Assembly: GCA_014859065.1 (NCBI GenBank)
Contig: JACUUU010000003.1
Span: 1-38,302, forward strand
Origin: Anaerolineales bacterium
GTDB taxonomy: Bacteria > Chloroflexota > Anaerolineae > Anaerolineales > UBA4823
Length of the DNA stretch: 38,302 nt
Direction of reading: 5' to 3'
Of this stretch, positions 15,805 to 37,395 are shown in pieces. Every line of letters begins with the position of its first letter. Position 1 is the first letter of the stretch. The notes beneath the pieces were generated by a model. It was not told the origin of the DNA. It was given only the letters and a program-made list of their open reading frames with translations, and did no database searches. Made by a program: the position numbers and the translations under genes.

Positions 15805-15869
15805 AACTAGATTAACATCATTTTCTGGAACTCTTTTACGCTGAGTTTCAGGACTAAGTAAAACCAAAG

Positions 15870-15917
15870 CCGGAGTCTGATTCTTTCCTGTACATATACA
15901 GCAAGGTCGGACTCCGG
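15870..15917 (+). promoter_or_regulatory. Intergenic stem-loop after the substrate-binding protein gene (mRNA stabiliser or partial attenuator)
   Basis: CCGGAGTCTGA (15870-15880) and TCGGACTCCGG (15907-15917), with no strong U-tract. Confidence 0.6.
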
Positions 15918-15940
15918 AATTATCATAAATTCGCATTCTT

Positions 15941-16975
15941 ATGACTCGCTATATCGCCCGTCGTTTACTTCAAGCCATCCCACTTCTCTTCATCATCAGT
16001 TTCGCATTGTTCTTCATGATGCAGAAAATGGGAGATCCGCTGGCTACTATGGGTGGTCGGACTATGACCCGCTCTGCAGACCGCGAAAGGCTCACCCGTC
16101 AGCTTGGCCTGGATAAACCGATCGTCGTCCAGTATCTCTACTGGTTGATCGGAAATGATTGGACCATGATTGATATGGACGGGGATGGCATTGCCGAGAC
16201 ACCGGGAACTCGTAAAGGAGTGCTGCGCGGTGACTTTGGCACCTCCCTGGTCAGCCGCGGCCGACCGGTGCTGGACGTGATCTGGGACCGGCTTCCTAAT
16301 ACTTTATTGTTGATGCTCACTGCGGAAGTGATCATCATCCTGGGTGCGCTGTTGATCGGGGTTTATTCTGCGCTGCGCCAGTATTCATTTGTTGATAACA
16401 CTGTCACCAGCGTAACCTTCGTGCTGTATTCCATGCCGGTATTCTTCTTTGCCCTGGTGGTCATGTACATCTTTGCAGTCAATTTCAAACGTTGGGGGCT
16501 GCCTTATTTGCCGACCGTCGGGATGTTTGACCCCATGGTTGGTAAAACTCCATTTGAAGTTGCCAAGCACATGGTTCTACCGGTAATGACCCTTTCATTC
16601 GGTTATTTCGCAGCTTACAGCCGCTACATCCGCAGCGCCATGTTGGAAGTCCTCAGCAAAGATTTCATCCGCACTGCTAAATCAAAGGGATTACCCCGCC
16701 ACCAGGTTGTCTATATCCACGCTTTGAAGAACGCCTCGCTACCCATTGTCACTGTAATCGGGTTAGATTTACCTTTCCTTTTGGGAGGGGCAATCGTCAC
16801 CGAGCGCATATTCGCCTGGCCAGGGATGGGCCGCCTGTTCCTGGATCACGTCTCGCGCGCCGACACACCCGTGGTCATGGGTATTTTAATGTTGATCGCC
16901 ACGGCAGTGATCGTCTTCCAGATCATCACCGATATTGTCTACGCCTGGCTCGACCCCCGTATCCGTTATGACTGA
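15941..16975 (+). CDS. Opp/Dpp ABC permease (OppB/DppB-like)
   Basis: GDFGTSL, EAA-type loop DFIRTAKSKGL, and ERIFAWPGMG. Confidence 0.95.
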   Translation: MTRYIARRLLQAIPLLFIISFALFFMMQKMGDPLATMGGRTMTRSADRERLTRQLGLDKPIVVQYLYWLIGNDWTMIDMDGDGIAETPGTRKGVLRGDFGTSLVSRGRPVLDVIWDRLPNTLLLMLTAEVIIILGALLIGVYSALRQYSFVDNTVTSVTFVLYSMPVFFFALVVMYIFAVNFKRWGLPYLPTVGMFDPMVGKTPFEVAKHMVLPVMTLSFGYFAAYSRYIRSAMLEVLSKDFIRTAKSKGLPRHQVVYIHALKNASLPIVTVIGLDLPFLLGGAIVTERIFAWPGMGRLFLDHVSRADTPVVMGILMLIATAVIVFQIITDIVYAWLDPRIRYD

Positions 16976-17924
16976 TATTTCACGACCTGCGGAAGCAAAA
17001 AACTTGCTGACACCTGATATTTTAGAAGCGCCTCCATTGAGCTTAAGCCAGATGGCCTGGCTACGTTTCCGCCGCCACCGCATGGCGATCTTTGGCTGTG
17101 TGGTGCTCTTACTAATCATCTTCTATTCACTCGGCGGTTCACTCATCTTCAGCGAAGGGGATGCTAACCGCACCGATACCACCAAGCGCCTGCAATCTCC
17201 TTCTGCCGCGCACCCCTTTGGTACCGATACTATTGGACGGGACATCCTGGCTCGTACCATATATGGTGGCCAGATCTCATTACTGATTGGTTTGACGGCT
17301 GTTATAGTCCAGGTTTTTATCGGGGTAATAATCGGAGCATTATCCGGTTACTTTGGTGGTTGGTTGGACAGTATCCTGATGCGTTTAACTGAGGCGGTCC
17401 TGGTTGTACCCCAAATTTTCCTTCTATTAGTTATGGCGAAATATTTTGGAGGTCAGCTTCCCAATATCAACCTCCTTGGTCGTACTCTTAGTGGCAGTGT
17501 GATAGTGATTATCCTGATTATCGGTGCGACCAGCTGGCCATATCTAGCCCGCATAGTGCGCGCGGAATTCCTATCATTGAAAGAAAACGAGTTCATACTG
17601 GCAGCCCGAGCGATCGGGACTCCCACCAGTCAGATCATATTTCGCCATCTCTTACCCAACAGCATTGCCCCTATTGTGGTGACAGCAACTTTAGGAGTTG
17701 CCAATGCCATCACCCTGGAAGCTTATATCAGCTTCTTAGGATTAGGAGTGCGGCCTCCTACCGCAACCTGGGGTAATATGCTGGAAGGTGCGTATAATTA
17801 CATCGAGACTGCTTATTGGTTGTGGTTGTTCCCCGGCTTGTTGATCGTTTTGATTGTATTGAGTATTAATTTTATCGGGGATGGTCTGCGGGATGCCCTT
17901 GATCCCCGTAGTAGAGCTGTTTAA
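16968..17924 (+). CDS. Opp/Dpp ABC permease (OppC/DppC-like)
   Basis: HPFGTDTIGRD, EFILAARAIG and GDGLRDALDPR. ATG overlaps the upstream gene end. Confidence 0.95.
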   Translation: MTDISRPAEAKNLLTPDILEAPPLSLSQMAWLRFRRHRMAIFGCVVLLLIIFYSLGGSLIFSEGDANRTDTTKRLQSPSAAHPFGTDTIGRDILARTIYGGQISLLIGLTAVIVQVFIGVIIGALSGYFGGWLDSILMRLTEAVLVVPQIFLLLVMAKYFGGQLPNINLLGRTLSGSVIVIILIIGATSWPYLARIVRAEFLSLKENEFILAARAIGTPTSQIIFRHLLPNSIAPIVVTATLGVANAITLEAYISFLGLGVRPPTATWGNMLEGAYNYIETAYWLWLFPGLLIVLIVLSINFIGDGLRDALDPRSRAV

Positions 17925-18001
17925 TGGTTGGAATGATTATATGATGTCCTTCTATGGTACAAGTGCCTCTACGTCATCACGAATTCATTGAACAAAATTT
18001 T

Positions 18002-18988
18002 ATGACCTACCTCCTCGAAGTTAACGATCTCAAGACTCGCTTTCGTACCCCCGAAGGGACAGTATTCGCCGTCAATGGGGTTTCCTTTCATCTCGAAGAT
18101 GGAGAGACCCTGGCTGTTGTTGGTGAGAGTGGTTGTGGCAAGTCTGTAACGATGCTTTCCTTGTTAGGCTTGATCCCTATACCTCCAGGTGAGATCGCCA
18201 GTGGCAGCGCATTTTACCGCGGGAAAGACCTCTTAAAGCTGACCGATATCCAATTGGAGGATATCCGTGGCAAGGAAATCGCCATGATCTTTCAAGACCC
18301 GATGACCTCCCTCAACCCGGTATTAACCATCGGCCGGCAGATTACCGAGACAATGTGCACCCACACCAACCTTTCCAAGAAACAAACCAGAGAGCGAGCT
18401 ATCGAGCTGCTCCAAGCTGTGGGTATCTCTGATCCTGGTCGCTGTCTCGATGAATTTCCACATCAATTCTCCGGCGGTATGCGGCAGCGTGTGATGATCG
18501 CCATGGCGCTCTCCTGCGAACCTGCCCTGCTAATTGCCGACGAGCCCACAACTGCTCTGGATGTAACAATTCAAGCCCAGATCGTCGAGCTGGTCATTCG
18601 TCTTAGGGAACAAATGGGTATGACAATCATCTGGATCACCCATGACCTGGGAGTAATCGCCAGTCTGGCAGACCGGGTGATCGTTATGTATGCTGGTTAT
18701 ATAGTCGAAGAAGCAAAAGTGGACGATATCTACGACGATCCCCGTCATCCCTATACTCTGGCTTTATTGGCTGCTTTGCCGCGCGTAGACTATCGTCGAA
18801 AGCAACGCCTGAAATCCATCCCTGGCGCTCCTCCCAACCTCCTGGTCGAGCCATCGGGATGCCCATTCGCGGTGCGTTGCGAATTTGCCTTCGATCGCTG
18901 TAGAGAAGAGAATCCACAACTGCTACCAATTTCTAACGATCATAAAATCTCTTGCTGGATTGATGTAAAGACTGGTAAACCCAGATGA
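18002..18988 (+). CDS. Opp/Dpp ABC ATPase (OppD/DppD-like)
   Basis: [24 protein letters not shown] and a Cys-rich C-terminal domain. Confidence 0.95.
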
Positions 18989-19971
18989 ACGATCCTTTGC
19001 ATCCATTAGTGCAGGTCCAAGGCCTCAAGAAGCATTTTCCTATCAAACGCGGCATCGTTATAGAGCGCCAGGTCGGAGCGGTACGCGCCGTTGACGGTCT
19101 TTGGTTTGATATTTATCGGGGTGAGACATTGGGTCTGGTTGGAGAGAGTGGCTGCGGAAAGACCACTGCTGGACGAACCATACTAGGGTTGTACCCACCG
19201 ACTGAAGGTGATGTAACCATCGACGATCACAATCTCAATTTAAAGAACAAACGCGAGATGCTTGCCATCCGCCGAAAAGCTCAAATGATCTTCCAGGACC
19301 CATTCGCATCATTAAACCCAAAGTGGACCGTCAGCGCTATTGTTGGGGAACCATTACGGGTACATAAGCTGGCAGGCAATCAAAAAGAAAGAACCGCGCG
19401 GGTCAAGGAACTACTGAACCTGGTTGGGCTAAGCAGCAGTCACGTAAATCGCTTCCCTCACGAATTCTCCGGCGGTCAACGCCAGAGGATTGGCATCGCC
19501 CGCGCTTTAGCTTCTGACCCACTTTTTATCGTCTGTGATGAGCCCATTTCCGCCTTGGATGTTTCCATCCAGGCTCAAGTCGTCAACCTGTTGGAAGATC
19601 TACAAGATCGGCTGCAGTTGACCTATTTATTCATCGCTCACGACTTGAGCATGGTGCGCCATATTTGTGACCGGGTGGCTGTGATGTACCTGGGGTTGAT
19701 CGTAGAATTAACTAGTCGGGACGAATTATACGAAAAACCATTACACCCTTACACCAAAGCATTGCTCTCCGCCGTCCCAATACCTGATCCCAAAAAAGAG
19801 CGCCTCCGCCAGAGGACTGTGTTGGAGGGCGATGTGCCCAGCCCTGTCAACCCTCCACCCGGATGCCGTTTTCACCCCCGCTGCCCAATAGCCGTTGAAC
19901 GTTGTTCCCAAGATGAACCAGAGTGGCGCGAGGTTACCCCAAATCATTGGGTAGCCTGTCATCTAGTCTAG
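18985..19971 (+). CDS. Opp/Dpp ABC ATPase (OppF/DppF-like)
   Basis: [24 protein letters not shown] and [12 protein letters not shown] overlap with the upstream gene. Confidence 0.95.
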
Positions 19972-20004
19972 AACTTGTTGGTAAAATACATCCAAAGGTG
20001 AAAC

Positions 20005-21873
20005 ATGCTACATCCTGTTTTGGATTTAGAACAGCTTTTGCGCGTCCCTCATGTTGACCCAGATCTGGGGTACGATATTTCCCCGGATGGCAAAAGGATT
20101 GCCTTTGCCTGGAATCCAACCGGTCAATGGGAGATCTATGAGGTTAACTTATATCCCAATAGCAAAGACACAGATCCAGCAATCTCCAGCAAACCACAAC
20201 CGCAGATCAACATTTCGCCTCAACTCGTTTCTGAAGGTGATGGTGCTAAATTCGCTCCTCGTTATTCCCCAAATGGCAGGAAACTGGCTTATGCTGTGGA
20301 TCTGGAGGGGGGAGAGAACTTTGATATTTACGTTTTTGACCGGGATACTGGGGAACATGTCAACCTCACCCCAAACACACCTGACGCCATCCAGCCCAAC
20401 ACCTGCTGGTCTCCGGATGGTTCCCAAATAGCTTTCTTATGGGATCGTTCCGGATGTTTTCAAACATATGTCATGCCAGCAGAGGGGGGAGAAGCTCGCC
20501 TCATTCTAGACATACCTTTCCCTGGATGGGATGTCCGTTGGTCACCTGACGGAAGGCACATTGCTGTGGTTGTCGAAGGACGGGGGCAGGATTTCCACAC
20601 CTACATCGTCCCGGTGGATGGTGGTGAAGCATGGTCGCTAGCAATTGAAAACGAGGCGATTAACGCCTTTGCATCTCGATGGTCTCTAGATGGAATGTCC
20701 TTAGCATTTAGCTCTGACTATCATGGCTATTACAATCTAGGCATTTATGAACTGGAAACCCGCAAGATAACCTGGGTGACAGATGGCGAGGGAGACAAAG
20801 GATCACCGAGCTGGTCGCCAGATGGTGAAAAATTGGCATTTGTGCTTTCCAAAGGAGCTCAGGCCTGGCTGGGCATCTTACAGCTTGGTGACAAATCCAT
20901 ACGCTTCTACCAAATTGAACCAGGGGTAATTTATGAGCCGCGTTTTACCTCAGATGGTGAGGGTTTTGTTTTCATCTTTGAGAACTACCGTCATCCAGAC
21001 GATTTCTGGCAGTTCTCCCTGGCAGATGAAAAAATGCACCAACTCACACAATCATTGCCGCCTGAGGTGCAAAATACGCACTTCATCATCCCCAGGGAGA
21101 TCAATTACCCTGCTATGGATGGCGCCAGTGTACCTGCCATACTATTTAAACCACAACAATCAGAACCTCTTCCTCCAGCTGTGGTAATCATCCATGGTGG
21201 CCCTACCTGGTTATTCCAATTCTTTTGGTATCCGATTATGCAGCATATGGCCAGTCGCGGCTGGGTAGTTCTGGCACCAAATTATCGGGGTTCCAGCGGA
21301 TATGGGCGTGAATGGCAGCTGGCTAACCGTTTCGACCTGGGAGGTGTAGACACGCGCGATGTCGTGGCTGGCGCCGATTACCTTGTAAAAGAAGGTCTTG
21401 CAGATCCTGCCCGAATCGCGGTCACAGGCACCTCGCACGGTGGTTACTTGACCATGACCTGCCTGACACAATATCCTGACCGTTGGGCAGCCGGTTCAGC
21501 AGTGGTTCCTTTCTTGAATTGGTTTACCTCCCACAAGAATTCTCGCGAAGACTTGCAGCATTGGGACAGAGAGAATTTTGGGGATCCACAGGAGAACTAT
21601 AACCTGTGGTATGAACGGTCGCCTTTCTTCTTCCTGGATCGTATTCAAGCTCCAGTACAACTAATCTGCGGTGCGCACGACCCACGCTGTCCCGCCAGTG
21701 AGTCCATTGCTGCTCGAGATGCGCTGGTAACCTTGAAAAAACCAGTTGATTTTGTTCTCTATCCGGACGAGGGTCACGGCTTTCTAAAGATTGAAAACGT
21801 CGTTGATGCTGCTTTGAAGCGAGCTGCTTTCTTGGCAAAGGCATTGGAGGCAGAAGGTCACGATGGGAAATAA
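20005..21873 (+). CDS. S9 family peptidase (acylaminoacyl/dipeptidyl peptidase) with a PD40 beta-propeller
   Basis: Repeated WSPDG motifs, HGGP, nucleophile GTSHGG, HDPR and EGHG. Confidence 0.93.
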   Translation: MLHPVLDLEQLLRVPHVDPDLGYDISPDGKRIAFAWNPTGQWEIYEVNLYPNSKDTDPAISSKPQPQINISPQLVSEGDGAKFAPRYSPNGRKLAYAVDLEGGENFDIYVFDRDTGEHVNLTPNTPDAIQPNTCWSPDGSQIAFLWDRSGCFQTYVMPAEGGEARLILDIPFPGWDVRWSPDGRHIAVVVEGRGQDFHTYIVPVDGGEAWSLAIENEAINAFASRWSLDGMSLAFSSDYHGYYNLGIYELETRKITWVTDGEGDKGSPSWSPDGEKLAFVLSKGAQAWLGILQLGDKSIRFYQIEPGVIYEPRFTSDGEGFVFIFENYRHPDDFWQFSLADEKMHQLTQSLPPEVQNTHFIIPREINYPAMDGASVPAILFKPQQSEPLPPAVVIIHGGPTWLFQFFWYPIMQHMASRGWVVLAPNYRGSSGYGREWQLANRFDLGGVDTRDVVAGADYLVKEGLADPARIAVTGTSHGGYLTMTCLTQYPDRWAAGSAVVPFLNWFTSHKNSREDLQHWDRENFGDPQENYNLWYERSPFFFLDRIQAPVQLICGAHDPRCPASESIAARDALVTLKKPVDFVLYPDEGHGFLKIENVVDAALKRAAFLAKALEAEGHDGK

Positions 21874-28309: not shown

Positions 28310-29170
28310 TCATCCCACAGCGACCTCGCTCACTATTCGCCGCCGCCTTTTCCAGGGCAGTCGCCAGCCCCCTTCTCCGCCCACACGAATATCACGACCT
28401 TCGAATAACCTCCATGCTAGCACCATAAATAGAATCGCAAAGCCAATCAAACCGCCAAACCATCCCCACTCAAGACCTTCCAATGCAAACCCTCCCTGGT
28501 AGTAGTAAAGCGGGGTGAATTGAGCCACTCCTTCCAGGTCCGGGTTCAAATCGATCAAAGAGATCATGAGGAAGCTGGCTACCAACAGAAAACTCGTCAA
28601 CATTGCCGAGGCACTCCGTGAAGGAAGCAGCATGCTGAGAAGCAGACCAAGGAATCCAAAGAATAAGAGTGCCGAGAAAAGGGAAAGGAAGGGTAACAAC
28701 AGCTCACCAGGGGTAATATCTAATCCAGTATTCGGGAGTACCAGGATGAATCCTGTCCACGTTATCGCTATTATCAAGATCAGGGAGACAATAAAAGCCG
28801 CCAAGCGGCTGAAGAACAAAGTTGTTCGGCTGATAGGGTGAGCCACAACCAGGTCAAGAACACCCCCCTCTTCGTCAGCAACCAACAATCCACTGCCTGA
28901 AAGTACAGCGTAGATTCCCAAGACCAGGGGCATCAAATAGAAGAAGTAGACATTGAGATAACCACCGCGACTGAACATGTCTGTCATACCACCAAAGAAA
29001 GCAAACACTTCAGGTGGGTATTGTTTTAGCAATTCCTCCATTACTTCTCTTTGTTCGATGAAGGTATCGTAAAATGTCAGGATATAGGCGCCGTAAGCTG
29101 TCAGAGAGAGACCCCAAATAATGATTGTGAAGCGTGCCCGCGAGAGATGATAGCGAAATATAGTGAACAT
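28310..29170 (-). CDS. ABC-2 type exporter permease
   Basis: About 6 TM helices, DEEGGVLDL..HPISR motif, downstream of an ABC ATPase. Confidence 0.88.
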   Translation of the reverse strand: MFTIFRYHLSRARFTIIIWGLSLTAYGAYILTFYDTFIEQREVMEELLKQYPPEVFAFFGGMTDMFSRGGYLNVYFFYLMPLVLGIYAVLSGSGLLVADEEGGVLDLVVAHPISRTTLFFSRLAAFIVSLILIIAITWTGFILVLPNTGLDITPGELLLPFLSLFSALLFFGFLGLLLSMLLPSRSASAMLTSFLLVASFLMISLIDLNPDLEGVAQFTPLYYYQGGFALEGLEWGWFGGLIGFAILFMVLAWRLFEGRDIRVGGEGGWRLPWKRRRRIVSEVAVG

Positions 29171-29232
29171 TTGGTTTGCCTTTTCTTAGAAAATATCAAT
29201 CAGGTCGGATCTAATTTCAATTTCCATGGATC

Positions 29233-30126
29233 TTATTGCCGGTAATATTCCAGGAAAATTTCTTCCAATGACGCTCTTTGGGTCTCAAAATCAACGACAG
29301 GAAATTGCGCAAGTGTCTTGATCAAGGCATCCATCTCACCTTCAGCTTTTAATACTACAACCGTGCCGTCATCGTGAGAAAGCACTTCGACTCCAGGAAC
29401 GCTCTCAAGGGTGTTGATATCCACCGGTTTTGCAAAGCGAATACGAGTGTGGCGCACCGCACGTGCGATCAAGGTCTCTGTATCTGCTACCTCAACTACT
29501 TTCCCTAGGCGGATTATGCCAACCCGATCTGAGATCTCCTGCACTTCGCTGAGAATGTGAGAGGAGAAGAAGATTGTAGCCCCTTCCTGGCGAGCTTCCG
29601 CCACCAGGTGCAGCACCTCTCGCTGCATCAACGGGTCTAACCCGAAGGTTGGCTCATCCAGCATGAGTAATTCTGGGCGGTGCATTAACGCCTGGATGAT
29701 GCCGACCTTCTGCTTGTTGCCGCGTGATAAATTCTTGATTGCAATCTTCAAATCCAGGTCTATGCGATCAGCCAGCTGGCGAATATACATCCAATCCGCT
29801 TTCCCACCGCGTAAACCATTCAAATAGCGAAGCACACCTTCTCCAGTCAGGTTCTCTTGCATGCGTAATTCCCCAGGAAGGTAACCAACGCGGGCACGCA
29901 CTGTGACTGGATCTTTCTGCGGGTCAACACCTAACACTTGAGATCTCCCCGCATCTGGTCGGATCAGATCCAGCAGGCAGCGGATTGTAGTGGTCTTCCC
30001 GGCACCGTTGGGACCAAGGAAGCCAAAGATCTCTCCGCGCCGCACCTCCAGGTCTACTCCCCTTAGCGCCTGCACTTTACCATAAGACTTCACCAAACCT
30101 TGGGTAAGAATCGCCAGTGGCTGCAT
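29233..30126 (-). CDS. ABC-2 exporter ATP-binding protein
   Basis: GPNGAGKTT, LSRGNKQK, LDEPT and SSH. SD GGAGG supports a start at 30126. Confidence 0.93.
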   Translation of the reverse strand: MQPLAILTQGLVKSYGKVQALRGVDLEVRRGEIFGFLGPNGAGKTTTIRCLLDLIRPDAGRSQVLGVDPQKDPVTVRARVGYLPGELRMQENLTGEGVLRYLNGLRGGKADWMYIRQLADRIDLDLKIAIKNLSRGNKQKVGIIQALMHRPELLMLDEPTFGLDPLMQREVLHLVAEARQEGATIFFSSHILSEVQEISDRVGIIRLGKVVEVADTETLIARAVRHTRIRFAKPVDINTLESVPGVEVLSHDDGTVVVLKAEGEMDALIKTLAQFPVVDFETQRASLEEIFLEYYRQ

Positions 30127-30174
30127 ATGAACCTCCGTGAACTGGTGTAATTTTAACACCAGCACAAACCTTCA

Positions 30175-30203: not shown

Positions 30204-30227
30204 TTTCGGCATAATTAATAACAAATG

Positions 30228-30647
30228 GCAATGATGGAAACGAGTAAGCCTGTGGCGATAGATGGATAATTCGCCAGGCTGACAGCGACCTCGGGTTTTG
30301 GTGGAAGCCGGGGCAGACCAGCAGGCTGAAAATCCTTCCGGAGCTGTAAACTGAAATAGTTATCCGGCCTGTCCTCTCATCTGCACTACCATACTTATTG
30401 AAAGGATTTCCTGATTACCAGGCTTGATAACTAAAATAAGGGAACCGGTCTCATCCACCGTTACCAGAGATGCGAGTATACGTCGGTAAGTCTGTTAGTT
30501 TTCCAGCCGGACTCTCAACTCCTGGTGGAAATACCCCCGATGACTGAATGGCTGTATTCGAACTGAGCGCTCGTTTTATCGGGAACCAGGGTGGTACCGC
30601 GGGAGAAATTATGACTCTCGTCCCTAATATCGGACGAGAGTTTTTTT
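30228..30647 (+). ncRNA. T-box riboswitch, Ile specifier, transcriptional type
   Basis: Stem I elements (ATGA, AGTA, CAGCGA, GGTGGAA) with specifier ATC at 30332-30334. CCGTTA at 30458. T-box AGGGTGGTACCGCG (30588-30601). Terminator ACTCTCGTCC/GGACGAGAGT plus T run (30614-30647). Confidence 0.93.
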
Positions 30648-30684
30648 GTTTATGTTTATGAGACAATTGAAATTTGGAGGAGAC

Positions 30685-33600
30685 ATGCCCTTTAAAGATG
30701 TGCCTGTTAAAGTAGATTTTCCAGCCCAGGAACGGGATTTGTTGCACTTCTGGAAAGAGACGCACGTATTCGAGCAACTGCGCCAGCTGCACAAGGATGA
30801 CCCTCACTGGTCATTCATTGATGGCCCAATTACTGCCAATAATCCCATGGGAGTCCATCATGGTTGGGGGCGAACATACAAAGACCTTTTCCAGCGATTC
30901 TGGACTATGCGGGGACGCAAACTTCGCTACCAGAATGGTTTCGATTGTCAGGGCTTGTGGGTTGAAGTCGAAGTCGAAAAGGAAATGGGCTTTAAGACCA
31001 AGAAAGATATCGAGGATTACGGGTTGGAGCAGTTCGTGCGCAAATGTAAAGCGCGGGTCCTGCGCTTCGCTGCCGTGCAAACTGAACAATCGATCCGCTT
31101 GGGTTACTGGATGGATTGGAACGATCCCGAGCAGTTACGGCTGCTATCTGGTCTCATCGTTTCCGACCCTTCCAAGGAGATCACCATTCAAGGTCCTGAA
31201 GGCCCAATCAGCGCCACCGTAGAGCAGATCATCGGTCAGCTAGGACTACCCAGACTGGGCGGCAGCTACTTCACATTCTCCAATGAGAACAACTATATGA
31301 TCTGGACTTTCTTGAAAAAGTGCTGGCAGAGGGGTTGGTTATACCGGGGGGTAGATGTAATGCCATGGTGCCCGCGCTGCGCCACCGCTATCAGCCAGCA
31401 CGAGATCGTCACTGATGGATACGCAGAGCTGACCCATCCTTCAGTAACGCTTCGATTTCCTCTAACTGAGTCTCATAATGATCATCCTGAATCCCTTTTG
31501 GTTTGGACTACCACCCCCTGGACTTTGACCAGCAATGTTGCCGTGGCTGTTGGACCTAATCTGGACTACGTGAAGGTCAAACAAGGAGAGGAGATATTTT
31601 ACCTATCCAAAGGCACACTGCATATGCTGCAAGGCGATTACCAGGTGCTCGCAGAATTAAAAGGCAGTGAGATGCAGGGCTGGCGTTATTTGGGTCCCTT
31701 CGATGATCTGCCTGCAGCCCAAAAGGTAGGTGGGCACCATCAAAGGTTAGACACTACAGGGGAGGAAGCGATCCAAGCCTCATCCAGCACCAGCCAGGCT
31801 CATCGCGTAATCCTGTGGGATGAAGTTGGCGAAACGGAAGGTACCGGGATTGTCCATATTGCCCCAGGCTGTGGTGCTGAAGATTTCGTTCTAGGAAAGC
31901 AGTATAACCTGCCCCTGATCGCACCCTTGGAAGAGGAAGGGCACTTCGTGGACGGTTTTGGCTGGCTGTCAGGAATGCATGTCTCTGAGGTTACCGATCC
32001 AATCTTTGAAGATTTGGAACGTAAAAACCTTCTCTACCAGGTCGCCCCGTACACCCACCGTTACCCCACCTGCTGGCGTTGTGCCACAGAACTGGTCTTC
32101 CGCCTGGTGGATGAATGGTTCATCAGTATGGGTGAGGTCTATGACAAACCCCGCGAACAACTCACCCCCGAAGAGAAATCTCGCTCTCTGCGCTATCAAA
32201 TCATGGATGTTGTTGATCAGATCCGCTGGATCCCCGAATTCGGCCATGCGCGCGAAATGGACTGGCTCTACAATATGCACGACTGGATGATCAGCAAGAA
32301 ACGCTTTTGGGGGTTAGCTCTGCCCATTTGGGTTTGCTCGCAATGCGATCATTTCGAGGTCATCGGTGACGAACTCGAATTGGAGGCACGCGTCATAGAA
32401 GGGTGGGAGAAATTCGAGGGGCACAGCCCCCATCGACCTTTTGTAGATCACGTTAAGATCGCCTGCCCAAGCTGCCAGGGACATATGGACCGCATCCTGG
32501 ACGTCGGTAACCCCTGGTTGGACGCTGGCATAGTGCCTTTCAGCACCTTGTGCTATCGCAGCGACCCGGATTATTGGCGCTCTTGGTACCCCGCTCATTG
32601 GATCAGTGAATCCTTTCCTGGTCAGTTCCGCAACTGGTTCTACAGCCTTTTGGCGATGGCTACCGTTTTGGACTACAGCCCACCTTTTTTAGAAAATTTC
32701 ACATACGGCACCTTACTGGCTGAAGACGGACGCCCCATGCATAAGAGTTGGGGAAATTCAATCGAGTTCAATGAGGCAGCCGACAAGATGGGAGTGGACG
32801 TAATGCGTTGGTTGTACTGCGCCCACAAACCTGAAAATGATTTGCTTTTCGGCTACACCCGTGGAGATGAAGTGCGGCGTGGTTTCCTGATCCCGCTTTG
32901 GAATGTTTACAGCTTTTTAGTGACTTACGCTAACCTGGACGGTTGGTCTCCTGGTGATTCGTCTGCTGGAAACCAAGGCGATCATCGTTTCGATCCAGGC
33001 TTCCCTGAAGGTACAGCACCTTCCAGTGAAAACCTGCTCGATCGCTGGATTGTAGCTCGTCTCAACCAAGTGGTCTCAACCGTGACCAAGAAGATAGAAG
33101 ATTCCGATCCATTGAGCGCTACAATCGCCATGGAGTCTCTCCTGGATGATCTGACCAACTGGTTTGTGCGTCGCAGCCGGCGCCGCTTTTGGAAGAGCGA
33201 ACATGATGCAGACAAACACTCTGCCTACGCAACCCTTTACCACGTGCTGGTAAAATTCATAAAACTCCTGGCACCTTTCACCCCATTTGTAGCTGATGTT
33301 ATCTACCAAAATCTGGTCCGCTCGATGAAACCACAAGCTTATCAAAGTGTTCACCATTGCGCCTGGCCAACAGCGGAGGATTCAGCAGTCGACAGTTCGC
33401 TGCTGGATCAAATGGCATTGGCGCGTCAGATCGCCAGCCTGGGACTGAGCGCCCGCAACAGCGCTGGATTGAAAGTCCGCCAGCCACTCGCCAAAGTCCT
33501 GGTCTATGTCCCCGCAAAGCGTTCCTTGGATTCCCGATTTGTGGATATCGTCATCGATGAGATTAACGTGAAGCAGCTAGAATTTGTGGAACAGGCAGAT

Positions 33601-34143
33601 CGGTTAGTGCAGTACCGTGTCCTCCCAGACAATCAAAAGCTGGGACCAAAGTTTGGTGCCAGGTTCCCCAAAGTGCGCACTGCGCTGGAGAATCTAGACT
33701 CCTTCAAAGTCGCGCAGCAAGTCCAGGCTGGAGATGCGGTAGAGATCACCATGGATGGTGAACGAATCGAACTCAACGCGGACGAACTTTTAGTGCACAC
33801 TCAACCGGTAGAAGGGCTGGCTATCGCCGCCGACCGGGTTGTAACCGTAGCTGTGGATGCAGTCATCACAGCAGAGCTGCGTGCTGAAGGCTTGGCGCGG
33901 GAGCTCGTGAGACGCATACAAGCGATGCGCAAAAATGCCGGCTTCAACATCCAGGACCGCATCACAACCTACTACAGAGGTGAGAGCGGTGACCTGGAAC
34001 AAGTGATCGCTGCCTGGGCTGAATACATCAAAGCCGAGACCTTGACCACCCATTTAGAAGGCGGGGAGCCGCCTCAGGACGCGTATGCTGAAACCCATAA
34101 ATTAGATGGAATGGAACTGCTATTAGGCGTGAAACAAAATTAA
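30685..34143 (+). CDS. ileS: Isoleucine--tRNA ligase, type 2-like, copy 1
   Basis: DGPITANNPMGVHH, WTTTPWTL, GTGIVHIAPG..ED editing site, PMHKS at the KMSKS position, IleRS2-type C-terminus. Directly follows the Ile T-box. SD GGAGG. Confidence 0.9.
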   Translation: MPFKDVPVKVDFPAQERDLLHFWKETHVFEQLRQLHKDDPHWSFIDGPITANNPMGVHHGWGRTYKDLFQRFWTMRGRKLRYQNGFDCQGLWVEVEVEKEMGFKTKKDIEDYGLEQFVRKCKARVLRFAAVQTEQSIRLGYWMDWNDPEQLRLLSGLIVSDPSKEITIQGPEGPISATVEQIIGQLGLPRLGGSYFTFSNENNYMIWTFLKKCWQRGWLYRGVDVMPWCPRCATAISQHEIVTDGYAELTHPSVTLRFPLTESHNDHPESLLVWTTTPWTLTSNVAVAVGPNLDYVKVKQGEEIFYLSKGTLHMLQGDYQVLAELKGSEMQGWRYLGPFDDLPAAQKVGGHHQRLDTTGEEAIQASSSTSQAHRVILWDEVGETEGTGIVHIAPGCGAEDFVLGKQYNLPLIAPLEEEGHFVDGFGWLSGMHVSEVTDPIFEDLERKNLLYQVAPYTHRYPTCWRCATELVFRLVDEWFISMGEVYDKPREQLTPEEKSRSLRYQIMDVVDQIRWIPEFGHAREMDWLYNMHDWMISKKRFWGLALPIWVCSQCDHFEVIGDELELEARVIEGWEKFEGHSPHRPFVDHVKIACPSCQGHMDRILDVGNPWLDAGIVPFSTLCYRSDPDYWRSWYPAHWISESFPGQFRNWFYSLLAMATVLDYSPPFLENFTYGTLLAEDGRPMHKSWGNSIEFNEAADKMGVDVMRWLYCAHKPENDLLFGYTRGDEVRRGFLIPLWNVYSFLVTYANLDGWSPGDSSAGNQGDHRFDPGFPEGTAPSSENLLDRWIVARLNQVVSTVTKKIEDSDPLSATIAMESLLDDLTNWFVRRSRRRFWKSEHDADKHSAYATLYHVLVKFIKLLAPFTPFVADVIYQNLVRSMKPQAYQSVHHCAWPTAEDSAVDSSLLDQMALARQIASLGLSARNSAGLKVRQPLAKVLVYVPAKRSLDSRFVDIVIDEINVKQLEFVEQADRLVQYRVLPDNQKLGPKFGARFPKVRTALENLDSFKVAQQVQAGDAVEITMDGERIELNADELLVHTQPVEGLAIAADRVVTVAVDAVITAELRAEGLARELVRRIQAMRKNAGFNIQDRITTYYRGESGDLEQVIAAWAEYIKAETLTTHLEGGEPPQDAYAETHKLDGMELLLGVKQN

Positions 34144-34218
34144 TGCCATTCACAACCGGGATAATAAAGTTCAGCGGTCTTCATAAAAAGCAGTTAAGTA
34201 TTTTGGTATGAGGCCATC

Positions 34219-37200
34219 ATGTTTAAACCCGTTCCCCCTGATTTGCATATAAATCAAATGGAAGAGGGCATTCTGCGCTTCTGGAAACACCACCATATCT
34301 TCGAGAAGACCAATGATCTACGCTCAGGGTCCGCGCAGTATGTTTTTTATGAAGGGCCTCCAACGGCCAATGGTCAACCAGGTGTGCATCACATCCTGGC
34401 AAGAGCGTATAAGGATATATTTCTACGCTATAAAACCATGCGTGGATACCATGTCATCCGCCGAGGTGGTTGGGATACCCATGGGCTTCCTGTCGAGCTG
34501 GAGGTTGAGAAACAGCTCGGATTCAACTCAAAATTGCAGATCGAGGAGTATGGTATCGCTGCGTTCAATGAGTTATGTCGCCAATCTACCTTTGAGTACA
34601 TCCTGGATTGGGAACGGTTGACAGACAGGATTGCCTATTGGGTAGCTTTAGATGATGCTTATATCACTTATACGAACGATTACATCGAGTCTGTGTGGTG
34701 GATGCTGAAGGCATTCTGGGATAAAGACCTGCTCTACCAGGCCTTCAAGATCGTCCCGTACTGCCCTCGTTGCGGTACACCTCTCTCCGACCATGAAGTC
34801 GCTCAAGGATTTCAACAAACAGAAGACCCCTCAGCTTTTATCCGTCTTCCACTGGTGGACGACCCAGGTACTTCTTTGTTGGTATGGACTACAACACCCT
34901 GGACTCTCCCAGGTAATGTTGCGGTGGCTGTGCATCCTGAAAAAGAATACATAATCGTCGAGCGCGATCAACCCGACAGTGGCCGAGAAAGATTGATATT
35001 GTCTAAAGATAGCCTGGATGCTGTGTTCGGGGAGGAATCCATTGAGCGCGGTGAAACCTTTATGGGGAAAAAACTTAAAGGCTTGAAATATCATCCTCTA
35101 TTTACATTTCTGGCAGCTGACAAACCCGCACATTATGTCGTCTTGGAAGAATTTGTCAATAGCACCGAAGGTAGTGGTATAGCGCATATTTCACCCACAT
35201 TTAATACCCAAGATTTGAAAGTCGCATTAGATCACGATCTCCCCATCCTGCAGACGATTACTGAAGATGGGACTTTTATACCTGAGATCAAACCATGGAG
35301 TGGGAAATTTTTCAAAGACGCAGATCCATTAATCTTTAAAGATCTTGAGGCGCGAGGACTACTCCTAAATGTTGGTACCTATATCCATACCTATCCGTAT
35401 TGCTGGCGCTGCAGTACTCCTTTACTCTACTATGCCCGAGAAACATGGTATCTGCGCACTACTCAGTTTAAAGACCGGATGGTAGCTCTCAATCAACACA
35501 TCCGTTGGCATCCCGAACAAATCAAGAATAAACGTTTTGGAAACTGGCTTGAGAACAATGTCGATTGGGTGCTCGGGAGAGAACGATATTGGGGAATACC
35601 CCTTCCGATTTGGGAGTGTAAAGTCTGCCACCACCAATTAGCAGTCGGCTCCCTGTCAGAGCTCAATCAATATTCTGGAAAAGACCTTCCCGAATTAGAC
35701 CTTCACCGCCCATTTATTGATGGCGTTAAGATCCCCTGCCCACATTGCCAAGGAACTATGGAGCGGGTGAAGGATTTGATCGATGTTTGGTTCGATTCCG
35801 GCTCTATGCCAGCCGCTCAATGGCATTACCCTTTCGAAGGAGAAGATCTATTCAACAAACAGTTTCCAGCTGATTTTATTTGCGAAGCTTATGACCAGAC
35901 CCGCGGCTGGTTTTATTCCTTGCATGCCATCAGCACTATGCTTTTCGACCAGGAAGCTTATCGCAACGTGATTTGTCTTGGATTGATCCTAGATGCTGAA
36001 GGCAAAATAATGTCTAAGTCACAGAAAAACGTCATCGACCCCTGGGAAGTGATCAACACCCATGGATCTGACGCATTCCGTTGGTACCTTTACACCGCAA
36101 CCCCCCCAGATAAAGATCGCCGGTTTTCGGTTGAGCTGGTTGGAGGGGCAGTCCGCCAACTGACCTTACCTTTATGGAATGTGTATGCATTTTTCATCAC
36201 GCATGCTGTGCTGGAGCGATGGACACCAACCCCCGAGAATTCATCAACCAGGTCAGGTTCAAACGACTACACCTATCTGGATCGCTGGCTGCTGTCGGAA
36301 TTAAATCTTTTGATTGAAGAGGTTACCAGCGCTTTTGAAGATTTCAATACAATCCAGGCTACCCGTCCAATCCAGAAGTTTGTTGAAGCTCTATCTCGGT
36401 TGTATCTGAGGCATTCGCGCCACCGCTTCAGGAGAAATGACAATCCTGCTGATAAACAGGCTGCATTCAATACCCTTTATATAACCCTGGTCACCCTGTG
36501 CAAGCTGCTTGCCCCAGCCATGCCTTTGTTGGCTGAGGAGCTCTACCAAAACCTGGTACGCTCCTTGGATCAGGAAACCTTACCTTCTGTACACATGGTA
36601 GATTGGCCGCGAACAGATTGGAGCATGATTGACGATGTCCTCGGTCAGGAAATGCAGCTGTTGATGAAACTGGTATCGCTAGGCCACTCTGCTCGGAATC
36701 AAGCTGGTATAAAGGTTCGCCAACCCCTTTCAGAGATTCTTTTCTCAGTCCAGAATAAATCAGAACAGCTCATCATCGATCAACAAAAAAATTTACTGAC
36801 TAAAGAACTCAACGTGAAAACGGTCCGTTCATTGAATACGACCGAAGAGTTCTTATCGCACATATTGAATCCACTACCCGCAAAATTAGGCAGTAAGTAT
36901 AAGGCATTATATCCATCCATCAAACAGGCTATCCATGATCTCAATCCGGAGAAGGTAGCTTCCAATTTGCTGGATGGGATTCCTATAGAAGTGACCGTTG
37001 GTGACCAGAATTATGTGATCCAAGCGGACGAAGTCGAAATTCTAACCCAGCCACTCTCCTCAATGGTAGTCTCACGAGATGGACCTTACTTTGCTGCTTT
37101 GAATACAGAGTTGACTCCCAACTTGATCAGCGAAGGAATCATCCGCGAGCTGATTAGGCACATTCAAAGTTTACGCAAGCAAGCTGACCTTGAGTTCAAC

Positions 37201-37395
37201 GACCACATTCAGATCTACTTTCAGACCACACCCAGCATTTCGGAAATCTTCCAAGAGTACCGTGACTACATTTTGAAGGAAACTCGCGCCACTGCGATGA
37301 TCAAAGCTGCTCCTCCTGACGAATCCATTACCATGACTACCAGGTTCGATAACGAACTTTCAGTTTTAGGGCTTATGGAAGCACCTGAAAAATAG
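34219..37395 (+). CDS. ileS: Isoleucine--tRNA ligase, type 2-like, copy 2 (divergent)
   Basis: EGPPTANGQPGVHH, GWDTHGLPVE, WTTTPWTLPGN, WFDSGSMP, DQTRGWF and IMSKS. Intact 1058-aa ORF. Confidence 0.85.
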   Translation: MFKPVPPDLHINQMEEGILRFWKHHHIFEKTNDLRSGSAQYVFYEGPPTANGQPGVHHILARAYKDIFLRYKTMRGYHVIRRGGWDTHGLPVELEVEKQLGFNSKLQIEEYGIAAFNELCRQSTFEYILDWERLTDRIAYWVALDDAYITYTNDYIESVWWMLKAFWDKDLLYQAFKIVPYCPRCGTPLSDHEVAQGFQQTEDPSAFIRLPLVDDPGTSLLVWTTTPWTLPGNVAVAVHPEKEYIIVERDQPDSGRERLILSKDSLDAVFGEESIERGETFMGKKLKGLKYHPLFTFLAADKPAHYVVLEEFVNSTEGSGIAHISPTFNTQDLKVALDHDLPILQTITEDGTFIPEIKPWSGKFFKDADPLIFKDLEARGLLLNVGTYIHTYPYCWRCSTPLLYYARETWYLRTTQFKDRMVALNQHIRWHPEQIKNKRFGNWLENNVDWVLGRERYWGIPLPIWECKVCHHQLAVGSLSELNQYSGKDLPELDLHRPFIDGVKIPCPHCQGTMERVKDLIDVWFDSGSMPAAQWHYPFEGEDLFNKQFPADFICEAYDQTRGWFYSLHAISTMLFDQEAYRNVICLGLILDAEGKIMSKSQKNVIDPWEVINTHGSDAFRWYLYTATPPDKDRRFSVELVGGAVRQLTLPLWNVYAFFITHAVLERWTPTPENSSTRSGSNDYTYLDRWLLSELNLLIEEVTSAFEDFNTIQATRPIQKFVEALSRLYLRHSRHRFRRNDNPADKQAAFNTLYITLVTLCKLLAPAMPLLAEELYQNLVRSLDQETLPSVHMVDWPRTDWSMIDDVLGQEMQLLMKLVSLGHSARNQAGIKVRQPLSEILFSVQNKSEQLIIDQQKNLLTKELNVKTVRSLNTTEEFLSHILNPLPAKLGSKYKALYPSIKQAIHDLNPEKVASNLLDGIPIEVTVGDQNYVIQADEVEILTQPLSSMVVSRDGPYFAALNTELTPNLISEGIIRELIRHIQSLRKQADLEFNDHIQIYFQTTPSISEIFQEYRDYILKETRATAMIKAAPPDESITMTTRFDNELSVLGLMEAPEK

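What the first reader, a model, noticed from the sequence alone, without database searches (positions are those of the whole stretch)
30228..37395. Two full-length, divergent IleRS2-type synthetases in tandem under one Ile T-box
Seen: two complete IleRS ORFs on the same strand, 75 bp apart, with no obvious terminator between them, behind an ATC-specifier T-box. They are not a recent duplication: copy 1 has DGPITANN, ESFPGQFRNWF and PMHKS, while copy 2 has EGPPTANG, EAYDQTRGWF and IMSKS. Established: well-studied two-IleRS bacteria pair an IleRS1 with an IleRS2, usually unlinked. Inference: two type-2-like enzymes of different subclades in one operon suggest a division of labour. Options are tRNA-Ile(GAU) versus the AUA-reading tRNA, trans-editing, a heteromeric partner, or inhibitor resistance. 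This is the best candidate for an undescribed system in the window.
Basis: partly seen in the sequence, partly recalled or inferred. Interest (0 to 1): 0.8.

Follow-up and report, generated by a model that had tools for sequence, protein, structure and literature searches.

The report
Two different IleRS genes, one operon
An uncultured Anaerolineae bacterium keeps two anciently diverged isoleucyl-tRNA synthetase genes back to back behind one isoleucine-sensing T-box, an inherited arrangement shared by related genera in which the second copy is sometimes intact, sometimes remodelled and sometimes catalytically dead.

Summary
A T-box leader with an ATC specifier (30222-30628) precedes two complete type-2 IleRS genes: A at 30685-34143 and B at 34219-37395. 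They are 75 nt apart with no hairpin between them, and are 32% identical.

It is not a chimera or a one-off. Sixteen of 137 genomes of the same family, in 12 genera, carry the same A-then-B tandem. All 15 testable loci have one T-box before A and none before B.

A belongs to a Chloroflexota-wide clade with GxHH and xMHKS motifs. It is the only IleRS found in about 65 family genomes, so it is the housekeeping enzyme. B is the Anaerolinea thermophila/Thermus-like type and is the sole IleRS in about 23 genomes.

Both copies are under purifying selection in tandem genomes (dN/dS 0.17 and 0.16). The window's B belongs to a derived subclade, B*. It departs from the consensus at 49 of 445 near-invariant columns, mostly in the tRNA-binding and editing parts, but keeps its catalytic and anticodon-reading residues.

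In other genera the second copy has lost every catalytic motif yet stays under selection (dN/dS 0.15-0.21).

Most likely this is a co-induced pair of active isozymes. The benefit of keeping both is not shown. I found no description in print.

The parts
30222..30628 (+). T-box leader with Ile specifier ATC at 30312-30314 and T-box sequence at 30588-30601. It carries two long insertions relative to the Rfam model.
   Evidence: RF00230, 72.7 bits, E 1e-15, below the gathering score of 93; sequence.
30613..30647 (+). Intrinsic terminator of the T-box: an 11-bp stem, 8-nt loop and U-run. Its 5' arm overlaps the 3' arm of the antiterminator.
   Evidence: MFE -27.1 kcal/mol, z -2.55; structure line of the alignment.
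30685..34143 (+). ileS type A, 1152 aa. An IleRS2 of the Chloroflexota-wide clade with GVHH, GFDCQGLW, ESFPGQFRNWF and PMHKS motifs and a 46-aa insert after residue ~148. It is the housekeeping enzyme. The RBS GGAGGAG lies at 30676-30682.
34144..34218 (+). 75-nt intergenic spacer with a GAGG ribosome-binding site 5 nt before the ATG. No hairpin, T-box or promoter-like site was found.
34219..37395 (+). ileS type B, derived B* form, 1058 aa. An IleRS2 of the Anaerolinea thermophila/Thermus-like clade with GVHH, GWDTHGLP, WTTTPWTL, DQTRGWF and IMSKS motifs. Its editing loop, ARD1 helix and C-terminal domain are altered.

Best explanation
The locus is a single transcription unit controlled by an isoleucine T-box. 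When uncharged tRNA-Ile pairs with the ATC specifier and the T-box sequence, the antiterminator forms and RNA polymerase reads through into ileS-A and then, across a 75-nt spacer without a terminator, into ileS-B.

A and B are two anciently separated IleRS2 lineages. A is the main, housekeeping synthetase of this lineage. B is a second enzyme with an intact catalytic core that has been kept by selection next to A since the ancestor of a large part of the family.

In this genome B is a remodelled form (B*). Its tRNA-binding C-terminal region, ARD1 helix and editing loop have shifted, while its Rossmann core and anticodon-reading residues are kept.

I read the pair as co-induced isozymes. Two differently built IleRS active sites are raised together whenever Ile-tRNA charging falls, which buffers charging against inhibitors or conditions that hit one enzyme harder than the other.

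Shown: the anatomy, the phylogeny, inheritance of the tandem, and selection on both copies. Inferred: co-transcription, activity of both enzymes, and the nature of the benefit.
For: Anatomy.

A is housekeeping.
- A-type genes occur in 104 of 137 family genomes.
- By my hand tally, about 65 genomes have A only.
- In 5 of 5 near-complete A-only genomes, A is the only IleRS locus over the ileS cut-off. One genome (G078) has an extra summed hit whose pattern looks like two ValRS genes.
- A's unusual motifs are invariant in 23 of 23 relatives. MHKS is present in 73 of 76 type-A loci, and the other 3 are cut or differ.

The tandem is inherited.
- A-then-B sits on one strand with a gap of about 220 nt or less in 16 of 137 genomes, in 12 genera.
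- G000, G004 and G070 group together, with G020 close by, in both the A tree (92, inside a 96* clade) and the B tree (96*).
- Tandem genomes include the earliest A branches.

Regulation: one T-box lies before A and none between A and B in 15 of 15 tandem loci with upstream sequence.

Selection: for the tandem pair G004-G020, dN/dS is 0.17 for A and 0.16 for B.

B* is a conserved subclade, not decay.
- The window's B groups with P0153 (76% identical) and P0154 (74%) at 100* on a long stem (0.29), with ordinary tips of 0.18-0.23.
- 30 near-invariant columns are changed in all three members.
- The catalytic motifs are kept.
- Retention of consensus residues is 93-95% in the Rossmann halves, against 74% in the C-terminal domain.

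Both copies keep the PmIleRS2 tRNA-recognition residues N647, F651, S713 (T in A), R721, Q961, R964, K965 and L969 (F in A).
Against: - No RNA data exist for this organism, so co-transcription rests on sequence alone.
- Both enzymes carry GxHH, so a pairing of one mupirocin-sensitive and one resistant enzyme, as in Bacillaceae, is not expected. No inhibitor biosynthetic cluster is seen in the window.
- B is dispensable over evolutionary time. About 65 family genomes lack it, and in at least 10 it is catalytically dead or truncated.
- The window's B deviates at 49 of 445 near-invariant columns, against a control median of 2 and a maximum of 25. These include the first Lys of KMSKS and the GN that follows it, so reduced or altered activity is possible.
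- Its dN against G004 is 1.6 times that of A (0.284 vs 0.173).
- The genomic context of the two other B* proteins could not be seen.
Confidence: 0.5

Rival explanations
1. B* no longer serves mainly as a synthetase. It is an early stage of the route seen in sister genera, where the second copy becomes a non-catalytic IleRS-like protein, for example a tRNA-Ile-binding or regulatory partner expressed with the active enzyme.
For: Catalytically dead B-derived paralogues exist. HIGH, the substrate-binding Asp, TTTPWT and KMSKS are all lost in G014, G103, G104, G116, G098, G110, G111 and G150 (8 full-length), plus the truncated G149 and G151.

Four of them lie directly behind A (G103, G104, G116, G150), and three of those four are behind the same T-box; G103's upstream sequence is cut by the contig end.

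They are under purifying selection.
- G110-G111: dN/dS 0.15 over 961 codons.
- G149-G151: dN/dS 0.21.
- The genus-g15 trio: pN 0.28-0.32 against pS ~0.77 (saturated), with intact ORFs of ~993 aa.

The g15 type has at least 9 members sharing GWQAHGLP. R964, which contacts G34 in PmIleRS2, is kept in 8 of 8 full-length dead paralogues. The changes in B* concentrate in the tRNA-binding and editing parts. A 706-aa dead IleRS-like ORF follows A by 4 nt in a more distant Anaerolineae genome (L071).
Against: B* keeps GVHH, GWDTHGLP, WTTTPWTL, the editing His and Asp, DQTRGWF and MSKS. With the better model, B* does not group with the dead paralogues; the sister pairing with G014 was not reproduced. 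The grouping of 7 dead paralogues carries a long-branch warning.
Confidence: 0.25
2. The pair is plain redundancy in transit. One IleRS2 type was inserted beside the other (gene displacement in situ), and B here is drifting towards loss with no function of its own.
For: The family shows a patchy pattern of A only, B only and both (about 65, 23 and 39 of 137 genomes). B appears in two frames in G057, G114, G047 and G053. The window's B lineage evolves faster than its A.
Against: The tandem is old: 12 genera, with A only 66-75% identical among them. B is as constrained as A in G004-G020 (dN/dS 0.16). The B* changes are shared by three species and the tips after the stem are ordinary. The 1058-codon frame is intact. 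Some of the split Bs are in assemblies where A is split too (G114, G151, G149), so they may be indel errors.
Confidence: 0.1
3. The two enzymes divide the tRNAs. One charges tRNA-Ile(GAU) and the other charges the AUA-reading tRNA-Ile (lysidine-CAU).
For: The strongest divergence in B* is in the C-terminal tRNA-binding domain and the ARD1 helix (W728, R732, R735, W738 in B numbering). TilS is present in the genome.
Against: All residues shown to read G34, A35 and U36 are kept in both copies. A alone and B alone each serve whole genomes, so each must charge both isoacceptors there.
Confidence: 0.08
4. A and B act as a heteromer, or B works as a trans-editing factor for A.
For: Co-expression from one operon. 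B keeps its editing His and Asp, with a remodelled editing loop.
Against: A keeps a complete CP1 editing domain with all motifs. From my own knowledge, IleRS enzymes are monomers. No interaction test was run.
Confidence: 0.05

Closest known systems
IleRS1 + IleRS2 pair of Bacillaceae (Priestia megaterium; Zanki et al. 2022, 10.1101/2022.02.09.479832, passages read)
   Same: Two full-length, active-looking IleRS paralogues about 30% identical sit in one genome. T-box control is present. The idea is complementary isozymes.
   Different: That pair is IleRS1 with IleRS2, unlinked, each gene with its own T-box and promoter, and one enzyme is mupirocin-sensitive. Here both are IleRS2, both carry GxHH, they are adjacent, and they share one T-box. 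That paper states that species with both genes belong only to Bacillaceae.
GxHH (non-canonical HIGH) IleRS2, mupirocin hyper-resistant (Brkic et al. 2023, 10.1101/2023.01.31.526100, passages read)
   Same: Both copies have GVHH in place of HxGH. The paper describes a major and a minor IleRS2 clade and mentions sparse Chloroflexi sequences on an early IleRS2 branch.
   Different: I could not check whether type A is that minor clade, because the trees are in supplements that are closed. The paper's text has no hit for MHKS or 'duplicat'. The xMHKS variant of KMSKS and the tandem are not mentioned in the passages I saw.
MupA / MupB acquired mupirocin-resistance IleRS
   Same: Type-2 IleRS acting as an extra copy.
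   Different: Neither copy reaches the NCBIfam exception models (529-833 bits against a cut-off of 1900). The genes are chromosomal and vertically inherited, not plasmid-borne.
Non-canonical aaRS paralogues (LeuRS-I of Sulfolobaceae, HisZ, SbzA; review PMC9437257, passages read)
   Same: Duplicated synthetases that have lost or changed their aminoacylation function but are retained. This matches the dead B-derived paralogues in sister genera.
   Different: The window's own B keeps its catalytic motifs. The dead IleRS-like proteins here sit in the ileS T-box operon and have no assigned function.
T-box-regulated ileS of Firmicutes and Chloroflexota (Rfam RF00230)
   Same: An Ile specifier, the T-box sequence, and a terminator/antiterminator switch upstream of ileS.
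   Different: The leader has long insertions and scores below the Rfam gathering threshold. It controls two synthetase genes instead of one.

Membership tests
Isoleucyl-tRNA synthetase (NCBIfam TIGR00392 ileS) | Whole-protein score over the curated cut-off of 621.4 bits | tested here: met
   Copy 1 scores 668.9 bits and copy 2 scores 880.3 bits. ValRS and LeuRS models score far lower.
Isoleucyl-tRNA synthetase | Class I signature motifs (HIGH-type and KMSKS-type) and the substrate-binding motifs GWDxHGLP and DQxRGWF | tested here: inconclusive
   Copy 2 has GVHH, GWDTHGLP, DQTRGWF and IMSKS; the first Lys of KMSKS is lost and GN is replaced by KN. Copy 1 has GVHH, GFDCQGLW, PGQFRNWF and PMHKS. 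These variants are invariant in 23 of 23 relatives, including genomes where copy 1 is the only IleRS. Activity is inferred, not assayed.
Isoleucyl-tRNA synthetase | CP1 editing domain with the Thr-rich WTTTPWT motif and the GTGxVHxAP...D His/Asp motif | tested here: met
   Both copies have WTTTPWTL. Copy 1 has GTGIVHIAPGCGAEDF. Copy 2 has GSGIAHISPTFNTQDL, with His and Asp kept and the loop altered.
IleRS type 2 (IleRS2) | Type-2 C-terminal domains (no Zn-binding domain of IleRS1), with IleRS2 enzymes as the closest relatives | tested here: met
   Pfam DUF5915 is present at the C-terminus of both. The best PDB matches are 8c8u-w (PmIleRS2) and 1ILE. IleRS1 structures (8c9e/f, 1ffy) score 180-300 bits, against 556-930 bits for the IleRS2 structures.
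IleRS2 with the non-canonical GxHH signature (hyper-resistant class of Brkic 2023) | Gly or Ala at motif position 1 and His at position 3 | tested here: met
   Both copies have GVHH. Resistance itself was not tested.
T-box leader (Rfam RF00230) | Score at or above the gathering threshold of 93 bits | tested here: not met
   72.7 bits (E 1e-15 in an 801-nt search); no hit at gathering settings. The shortfall goes with two long insertions. Orthologous leaders score 58-114 bits.
T-box leader (Rfam RF00230) | Specifier loop with a codon after GAA, the conserved T-box sequence, and mutually exclusive terminator and antiterminator | tested here: met
   GAA-A-ATC at 30308-30314, AGGGTGGTACCGCG at 30588-30601, and a terminator at 30613-30647 that shares CTCTCGTCC with the antiterminator.
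MupA / MupB mupirocin-resistance IleRS (NF000257, NF000258) | Score over the curated cut-off of 1900 bits | tested here: not met
   529-544 bits for copy 1 and 800-833 bits for copy 2.
Bacillaceae-type dual IleRS system | One IleRS1 (mupirocin-sensitive, fast) plus one IleRS2 | tested here: not met
   No IleRS1 is in the genome. The only two ileS loci are both type 2.
Pseudo-synthetase (catalytically dead aaRS paralogue) | Loss of the catalytic signature motifs with the fold retained | tested here: not met
   Not met for the window's copy 2. Met for B-derived paralogues of G014, G103, G104, G116, G098, G110, G111 and G150.

The most novel reading that the evidence does not exclude
The second gene of this operon belongs to a lineage that is turning, repeatedly and under selection, from a working IleRS2 into a new family of non-catalytic IleRS-like proteins. 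These proteins are still expressed from the Ile T-box together with the active enzyme and still keep the Arg that contacts the tRNA-Ile anticodon. The window's B* would be a functionally shifted intermediate that already does something other than bulk charging, such as holding, delivering or sensing tRNA-Ile, or modulating IleRS-A.
Probability: 0.25. Interest if true: 0.8.

Novelty: new variant of a known kind. Interest (0 to 1): 0.62.

Why it matters
Duplicated synthetases are the classic route to antibiotic resistance and to new, non-translational functions. For IleRS, the only studied natural pair is IleRS1 with IleRS2 in Bacillaceae. This locus shows a second, independent solution: two IleRS2 lineages fixed in one T-box operon and inherited across at least 12 genera.

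The relatives provide a natural series for the second copy, from canonical, through remodelled (this window), to catalytically dead but still selected. That series makes a long-standing question directly testable: how an essential enzyme's duplicate is kept, re-purposed or lost.

It also identifies a widespread housekeeping IleRS with xMHKS instead of KMSKS alongside GxHH. That enzyme is a useful test case for what the class I signature motifs really require.

Tried and rejected
- RNA evidence: no RNA holder was listed for the stretch. Only DNA contigs could be laid.
- Base composition does not set either gene apart. GC and GC3 of both lie within the range of the window's other genes.
- Metagenome scan with copy 2: 40 loci at 39-61% identity and none with an A gene in the flanks. 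It did not recover the two closest B* relatives (P0153, P0154), and the look-up of encoding contigs is closed, so I do not know whether they sit behind an A gene.
- The first tree (LG+G4) paired the window's B with the dead paralogue of G014 (98*). With more sequences and the PMSF mixture model this was not reproduced, and I dropped that reading.
- The clustering of 7 dead paralogues (99*) carries a long-branch warning. I do not claim a single origin. The G150 case is separate (98* with G023).
- Self-resistance gene beside an inhibitor gene cluster: a Pfam scan of 27 window ORFs shows no biosynthetic cluster.
- tRNA repertoire: 42 tRNAs in the MAG, none for Ile, two CAU and no UAU. This is uninformative because the assembly is incomplete.
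- No T-box was found upstream of the A gene of G002 at E <= 0.001. This is a miss I cannot explain.
- I did not run structure or complex prediction. I make no binding claim, and the two proteins exceed the size limit.
- Literature searches returned no paper on an IleRS2+IleRS2 pair, on tandem ileS in Chloroflexota, or on dead IleRS paralogues. Supplementary trees of Brkic 2023 and of the 2026 preprint, which may already contain these sequences, are closed.
Full report
**1. What is there**

The + strand carries two long ORFs. Copy 1 is listed from TTG 30646, but that codon lies in the U-tract of a terminator. The ATG at 30685 follows GGAGGAG and gives the N-terminus MPFKDVP, which all orthologues share. 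I therefore take copy 1 as 30685-34143, 1152 aa. Copy 2 is 34219-37395, 1058 aa. The spacer between them is 75 nt.

Both proteins pass the NCBIfam ileS model: 668.9 and 880.3 bits against a cut-off of 621.4. [quoted passage not shown] Their best matches among solved structures are IleRS2 enzymes, P. megaterium 8c8u-w and T. thermophilus 1ILE, well ahead of IleRS1 structures. The two copies are 32% identical over their full length.

The own genome is a MAG of 3.99 Mb in 491 contigs, 95% complete with 6.3% contamination. It has no other IleRS gene.

**2. The leader**

Rfam finds no T-box at gathering settings. A local search matches RF00230 end to end at 30222-30628 with 72.7 bits and E 1e-15, with two long insertions.

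- The specifier loop reads GAA-A-ATC (ATC at 30312-30314).
- The T-box sequence AGGGTGGTACCGCG lies at 30588-30601.
- An 11-bp hairpin with a U-run lies at 30613-30647. It shares its 5' arm with the antiterminator. It folds better than shuffles (z -2.55).

The 75-nt spacer has no terminator-like or promoter-like site on the + strand. It folds no better than shuffles (z +0.69). It has a GAGG 5 nt before the ATG. Co-transcription is therefore likely but inferred, since no RNA run holds the stretch.

**3. Not a chimera and not a one-off**

A contig from public run X1 spans 34062-36622. In run X2, from a second study, one contig covers 34120-34784 and the adjacent contig ends at 34146. X1 may be the source sample, and X2 puts only 24 nt on the A side, so this is weak evidence on its own.

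The strong evidence is comparative. I searched all 137 genomes of the same family with each protein. I call copy-1-like genes A (58-78% identical to copy 1, about 33% to copy 2) and copy-2-like genes B. By hand tally of the two outputs:

| State | Genomes (of 137) |
|---|---|
| Both A and B (or a B-derived gene) | about 39 |
| A only | about 65 |
| B only | about 23 |
| Neither, at the thresholds used | about 10 |

Forty matches were not listed, so the "both" count may be low.

In 16 genomes A is followed on the same strand by B or a B-derived gene with a gap of at most about 220 nt. These are G000, G004, G020, G055, G056, G057, G060, G070, G101, G102, G103, G104, G112, G113, G116 and G150, in 12 genera. 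The order is always A then B. Looser linkage, or an intervening opposite-strand gene, occurs in G003, G048, G072, G114, G136, G149 and G151.

Among 80 type-A loci from a species-level genome collection, a B-type or B-derived gene lies within 6 kb downstream in four: L054, L057, L059 and L071. By matching contig lengths, L054 and L057 are G057 and G003. L059 (78-nt gap) and L071 add two cases. None of 40 metagenome loci with a B gene has an A gene in its flanks.

**4. Regulation is shared**

In all 15 tandem loci with upstream sequence there is exactly one T-box hit, before A, and none between A and B:

- the window;
- G004 and G020;
- nine loci;
- G104, G116 and G057.

G103 could not be tested because its A gene is cut by the contig end.

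Where a genome has only one type, that gene has the T-box. This holds for sole B in 3 of 3 genomes (G011, G037, G039) and for sole A in 2 of 2 (G016, G021).

Where B is unlinked from A, no T-box was found before B: G002, G003 and G023, and the dead paralogues of G098, G110 and G111 with 640-780 nt of upstream flank. One miss goes the other way: no T-box was found before the A gene of G002.

**5. Which copy is which**

A looks the odder of the two. It has GVHH, GFDCQGLW, ESFPGQFRNWF, PMHKS in place of KMSKS, and a 46-aa insert. Even so, it is the lineage's housekeeping enzyme.

- Its motifs are invariant in 23 of 23 relatives.
- In five near-complete A-only genomes it is the only IleRS locus over the ileS cut-off. 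One genome has an extra summed hit that looks like two ValRS genes.

A pattern scan with DGPITANN and GFDCQGLW found at least 596 stretches in the species-level collection. In the best 80, GxHH is present in all 75 that could be read and MHKS in 73 of 76.

The tree of these sequences is mostly Chloroflexota: Anaerolineae, Ardenticatenia, Dehalococcoidia, Limnocylindria and Thermomicrobia. Bathyarchaeia and Asgard clades are nested inside (FastTree, so the topology is indicative only).

B is the type found in Anaerolinea thermophila (P0335, named by NCBI). It is closest to T. thermophilus IleRS (930 bits).

Brkic et al. 2023 describe GxHH as the mupirocin hyper-resistance motif. They also describe a major and a minor IleRS2 clade and note sparse Chloroflexi sequences on an early IleRS2 branch (passages). 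I could not check whether A is that minor clade, because the supplements are closed.

**6. Inheritance and selection**

G000, G004 and G070 group together, with G020 close by, in both trees. In the A tree they group at 92 inside a 96* all-tandem clade. In the B tree they sit in a 96* clade. Tandem genomes also include the earliest branches of the A tree (G060, G116, G101). The tandem is therefore old, and was later lost, split or broken many times.

The A and B trees are not congruent everywhere. For example, G002 and G003 are sisters for B but not for A, so some exchange within the family is likely.

Selection figures:

| Comparison | A | B |
|---|---|---|
| G004-G020, dN/dS | 0.17 | 0.16 |
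| Window vs G004, dN | 0.173 | 0.284 |

Synonymous sites are saturated in the window-G004 comparison. The G004-G020 values show that both genes are functional in tandem genomes.

**7. The window's B is a derived form (B*)**

Its closest relatives are two metagenome proteins, P0153 (76% identical) and P0154 (74%). The next hits are 65% and below. The three form a 100* clade on a stem of 0.29 with ordinary tips of 0.18-0.23.

I counted deviations at the 445 columns that are at least 97% conserved in 123 canonical B sequences:

| Sequence | Columns deviating (of 445) |
|---|---|
| Window B | 49 |
| P0153 | 53 |
| P0154 | 56 |
| Leave-one-out control, median | 2 |
| Leave-one-out control, maximum | 25 |

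Thirty columns are changed in all three B* members. Shared changes include:

- the editing loop, GTGLVHxAPAFGAED to G[ST]G[IL]AHISPTFNTQD;
- the residue before the DQ motif, V to Y;
- GN after KMSKS changed to [RK]N;
- the ARD1 helix, WYLRRSRRRFWK to LYLRHSRHRFRR in the window.

By region, B* keeps the canonical consensus as follows:

| Region | Consensus kept |
|---|---|
| Two Rossmann halves | 93-95% |
| CP1 | 88% |
| ARD1 | 86% |
| C-terminal domain | 74% |

The catalytic motifs, the editing His and Asp, and the residues shown by mutagenesis to read the tRNA-Ile anticodon in PmIleRS2 are all kept. Those residues are N647, F651, S713, R721, Q961, R964, K965 and L969 (preprint 10.64898/2026.02.03.703510, sections 7-8 read). 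Copy A also keeps them, with T at 713 and F at 969.

A burst of change on the stem followed by normal conservation looks like a functional shift, not ongoing decay.

**8. The second copy elsewhere**

In eight family genomes a full-length B-derived gene has lost HIGH, the substrate-binding Asp, the Thr-rich editing motif and KMSKS. These are G014, G103, G104, G116, G098, G110, G111 and G150. G149 and G151 have truncated forms.

Four of the eight lie directly behind A (G103, G104, G116, G150), and three of those four are behind the same T-box; G103's upstream sequence is cut.

They are not pseudogenes:

- G110-G111: dN/dS 0.15 over 961 codons (dS 0.55).
- G149-G151: dN/dS 0.21.
- The genus-g15 trio keeps ORFs of ~993 aa, with pN 0.28-0.32 against saturated pS ~0.77.

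The g15 type has at least nine members in public data. All share GWQAHGLP, and none carries a source name. The Arg equivalent to R964 is kept in 8 of 8. A 706-aa dead IleRS-like ORF follows A by 4 nt in a more distant Anaerolineae genome (L071).

At least two independent losses are supported: G150 groups with G023 at 98*, separately from the rest. The clustering of the other seven carries a long-branch warning.

Split B genes in G047, G053, G057 and G114 may be real breaks or indel errors. In G114, G149 and G151 the A gene is split too.

**9. Reading**

Shown:

- a T-box leader followed by two IleRS2 genes of different ancient clades;
- an arrangement inherited across genera;
- A as the housekeeping enzyme;
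- B under selection, and in this genome a conserved, remodelled form with an intact catalytic core.

Inferred: one transcript, activity of both enzymes, and the benefit of keeping both.

I favour co-induced isozymes that buffer Ile-tRNA charging (0.5). The main rival is that B* has already moved towards the non-catalytic role seen in sister genera (0.25). Neutral transit (0.1), an isoacceptor split (0.08), and a heteromer or trans-editing role (0.05) are less likely, for the reasons given under each rival.

**10. Comparison and novelty**

The closest studied system is the IleRS1+IleRS2 pair of Bacillaceae. It differs in the types paired, in linkage, in regulation and in inhibitor logic. I did not find any paper on an IleRS2+IleRS2 pair, on tandem ileS in Chloroflexota, or on dead IleRS paralogues (searches; supplements not seen).

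I rate this a new variant of a known kind, namely duplicated synthetases. It has an unusually informative natural series of states for the second copy.

Noticed in passing
L052:629-3607 (-) = G014:C343; L182:198-3176 (-) = G104; L183:232-3216 (-) = G103: A family of ~990-aa IleRS2-derived proteins with all catalytic motifs lost (HIGH, KMSKS, TTTPWT; GWD changed to GWQ). It is conserved in at least 9 sequences at 50-66% identity and none carries a source name. In G103 and G104 it lies directly behind the active ileS-A, which in G104 follows the T-box.
   Followed up: partly
L196:223-3117 (-) (G110) and L197:727-3621 (+) (G111): A second, more diverged type of dead IleRS-like paralogue, 961 aa. 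It is unlinked from ileS-A and no T-box was found upstream. dN/dS between the two species is 0.15.
   Followed up: partly
L071:9352-11469 (+): A 706-aa IleRS-like ORF without catalytic motifs and without the C-terminal domains. It starts 4 nt after ileS-A in a more distant Anaerolineae MAG. A T-box lies about 900 nt upstream of A, and a TPP riboswitch lies on the other strand at 4602-4713.
   Followed up: partly
G127:C1:1008509-1011667 and G133:C33:27843-31001: The only B-type ileS of two genomes of one genus (one of them a single-contig genome) is reported with one in-frame TAG. It could be a sequencing error, a pseudogene or recoding.
   Followed up: no
G078:C1:65012-69865 (-): One 1757-aa open frame gives two consecutive sets of ValRS-like hits to the ileS model. 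This looks like a tandem or fused pair of ValRS-like genes.
   Followed up: no
L084 (record titled Methanosarcinales archaeon) versus L086 and L089 (Anaerolineales): The type-A IleRS on the 'Methanosarcinales' contig is nearly identical to those of two Anaerolineales MAGs (tips 0.03-0.05). This is probably a mis-binned contig rather than a transfer.
   Followed up: no
window 28310-30165 (-): A DrrA-like ABC ATPase and an ABC-2 permease are transcribed divergently from the T-box leader. I did not check whether this neighbourhood is conserved in the other tandem genomes.
   Followed up: no
window 3396-4496 (-): A protein of the bacterial archaeo-eukaryotic release-factor-like family 10 (baeRF) sits next to an HtrA-type protease and a DnaJ gene.
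   Followed up: no
window 14089-21873 (+): An Opp-type peptide ABC transporter operon (binding protein, two permeases, two ATPases) is followed by an S9 prolyl-oligopeptidase-family gene.
   Followed up: no
window 30222-30628: This T-box and most of its orthologues score below Rfam's gathering threshold (58-114 bits; only 3 of the 24 orthologous leaders reach 93) because of long insertions. Default Rfam annotation would therefore miss most of them in this family.
   Followed up: partly
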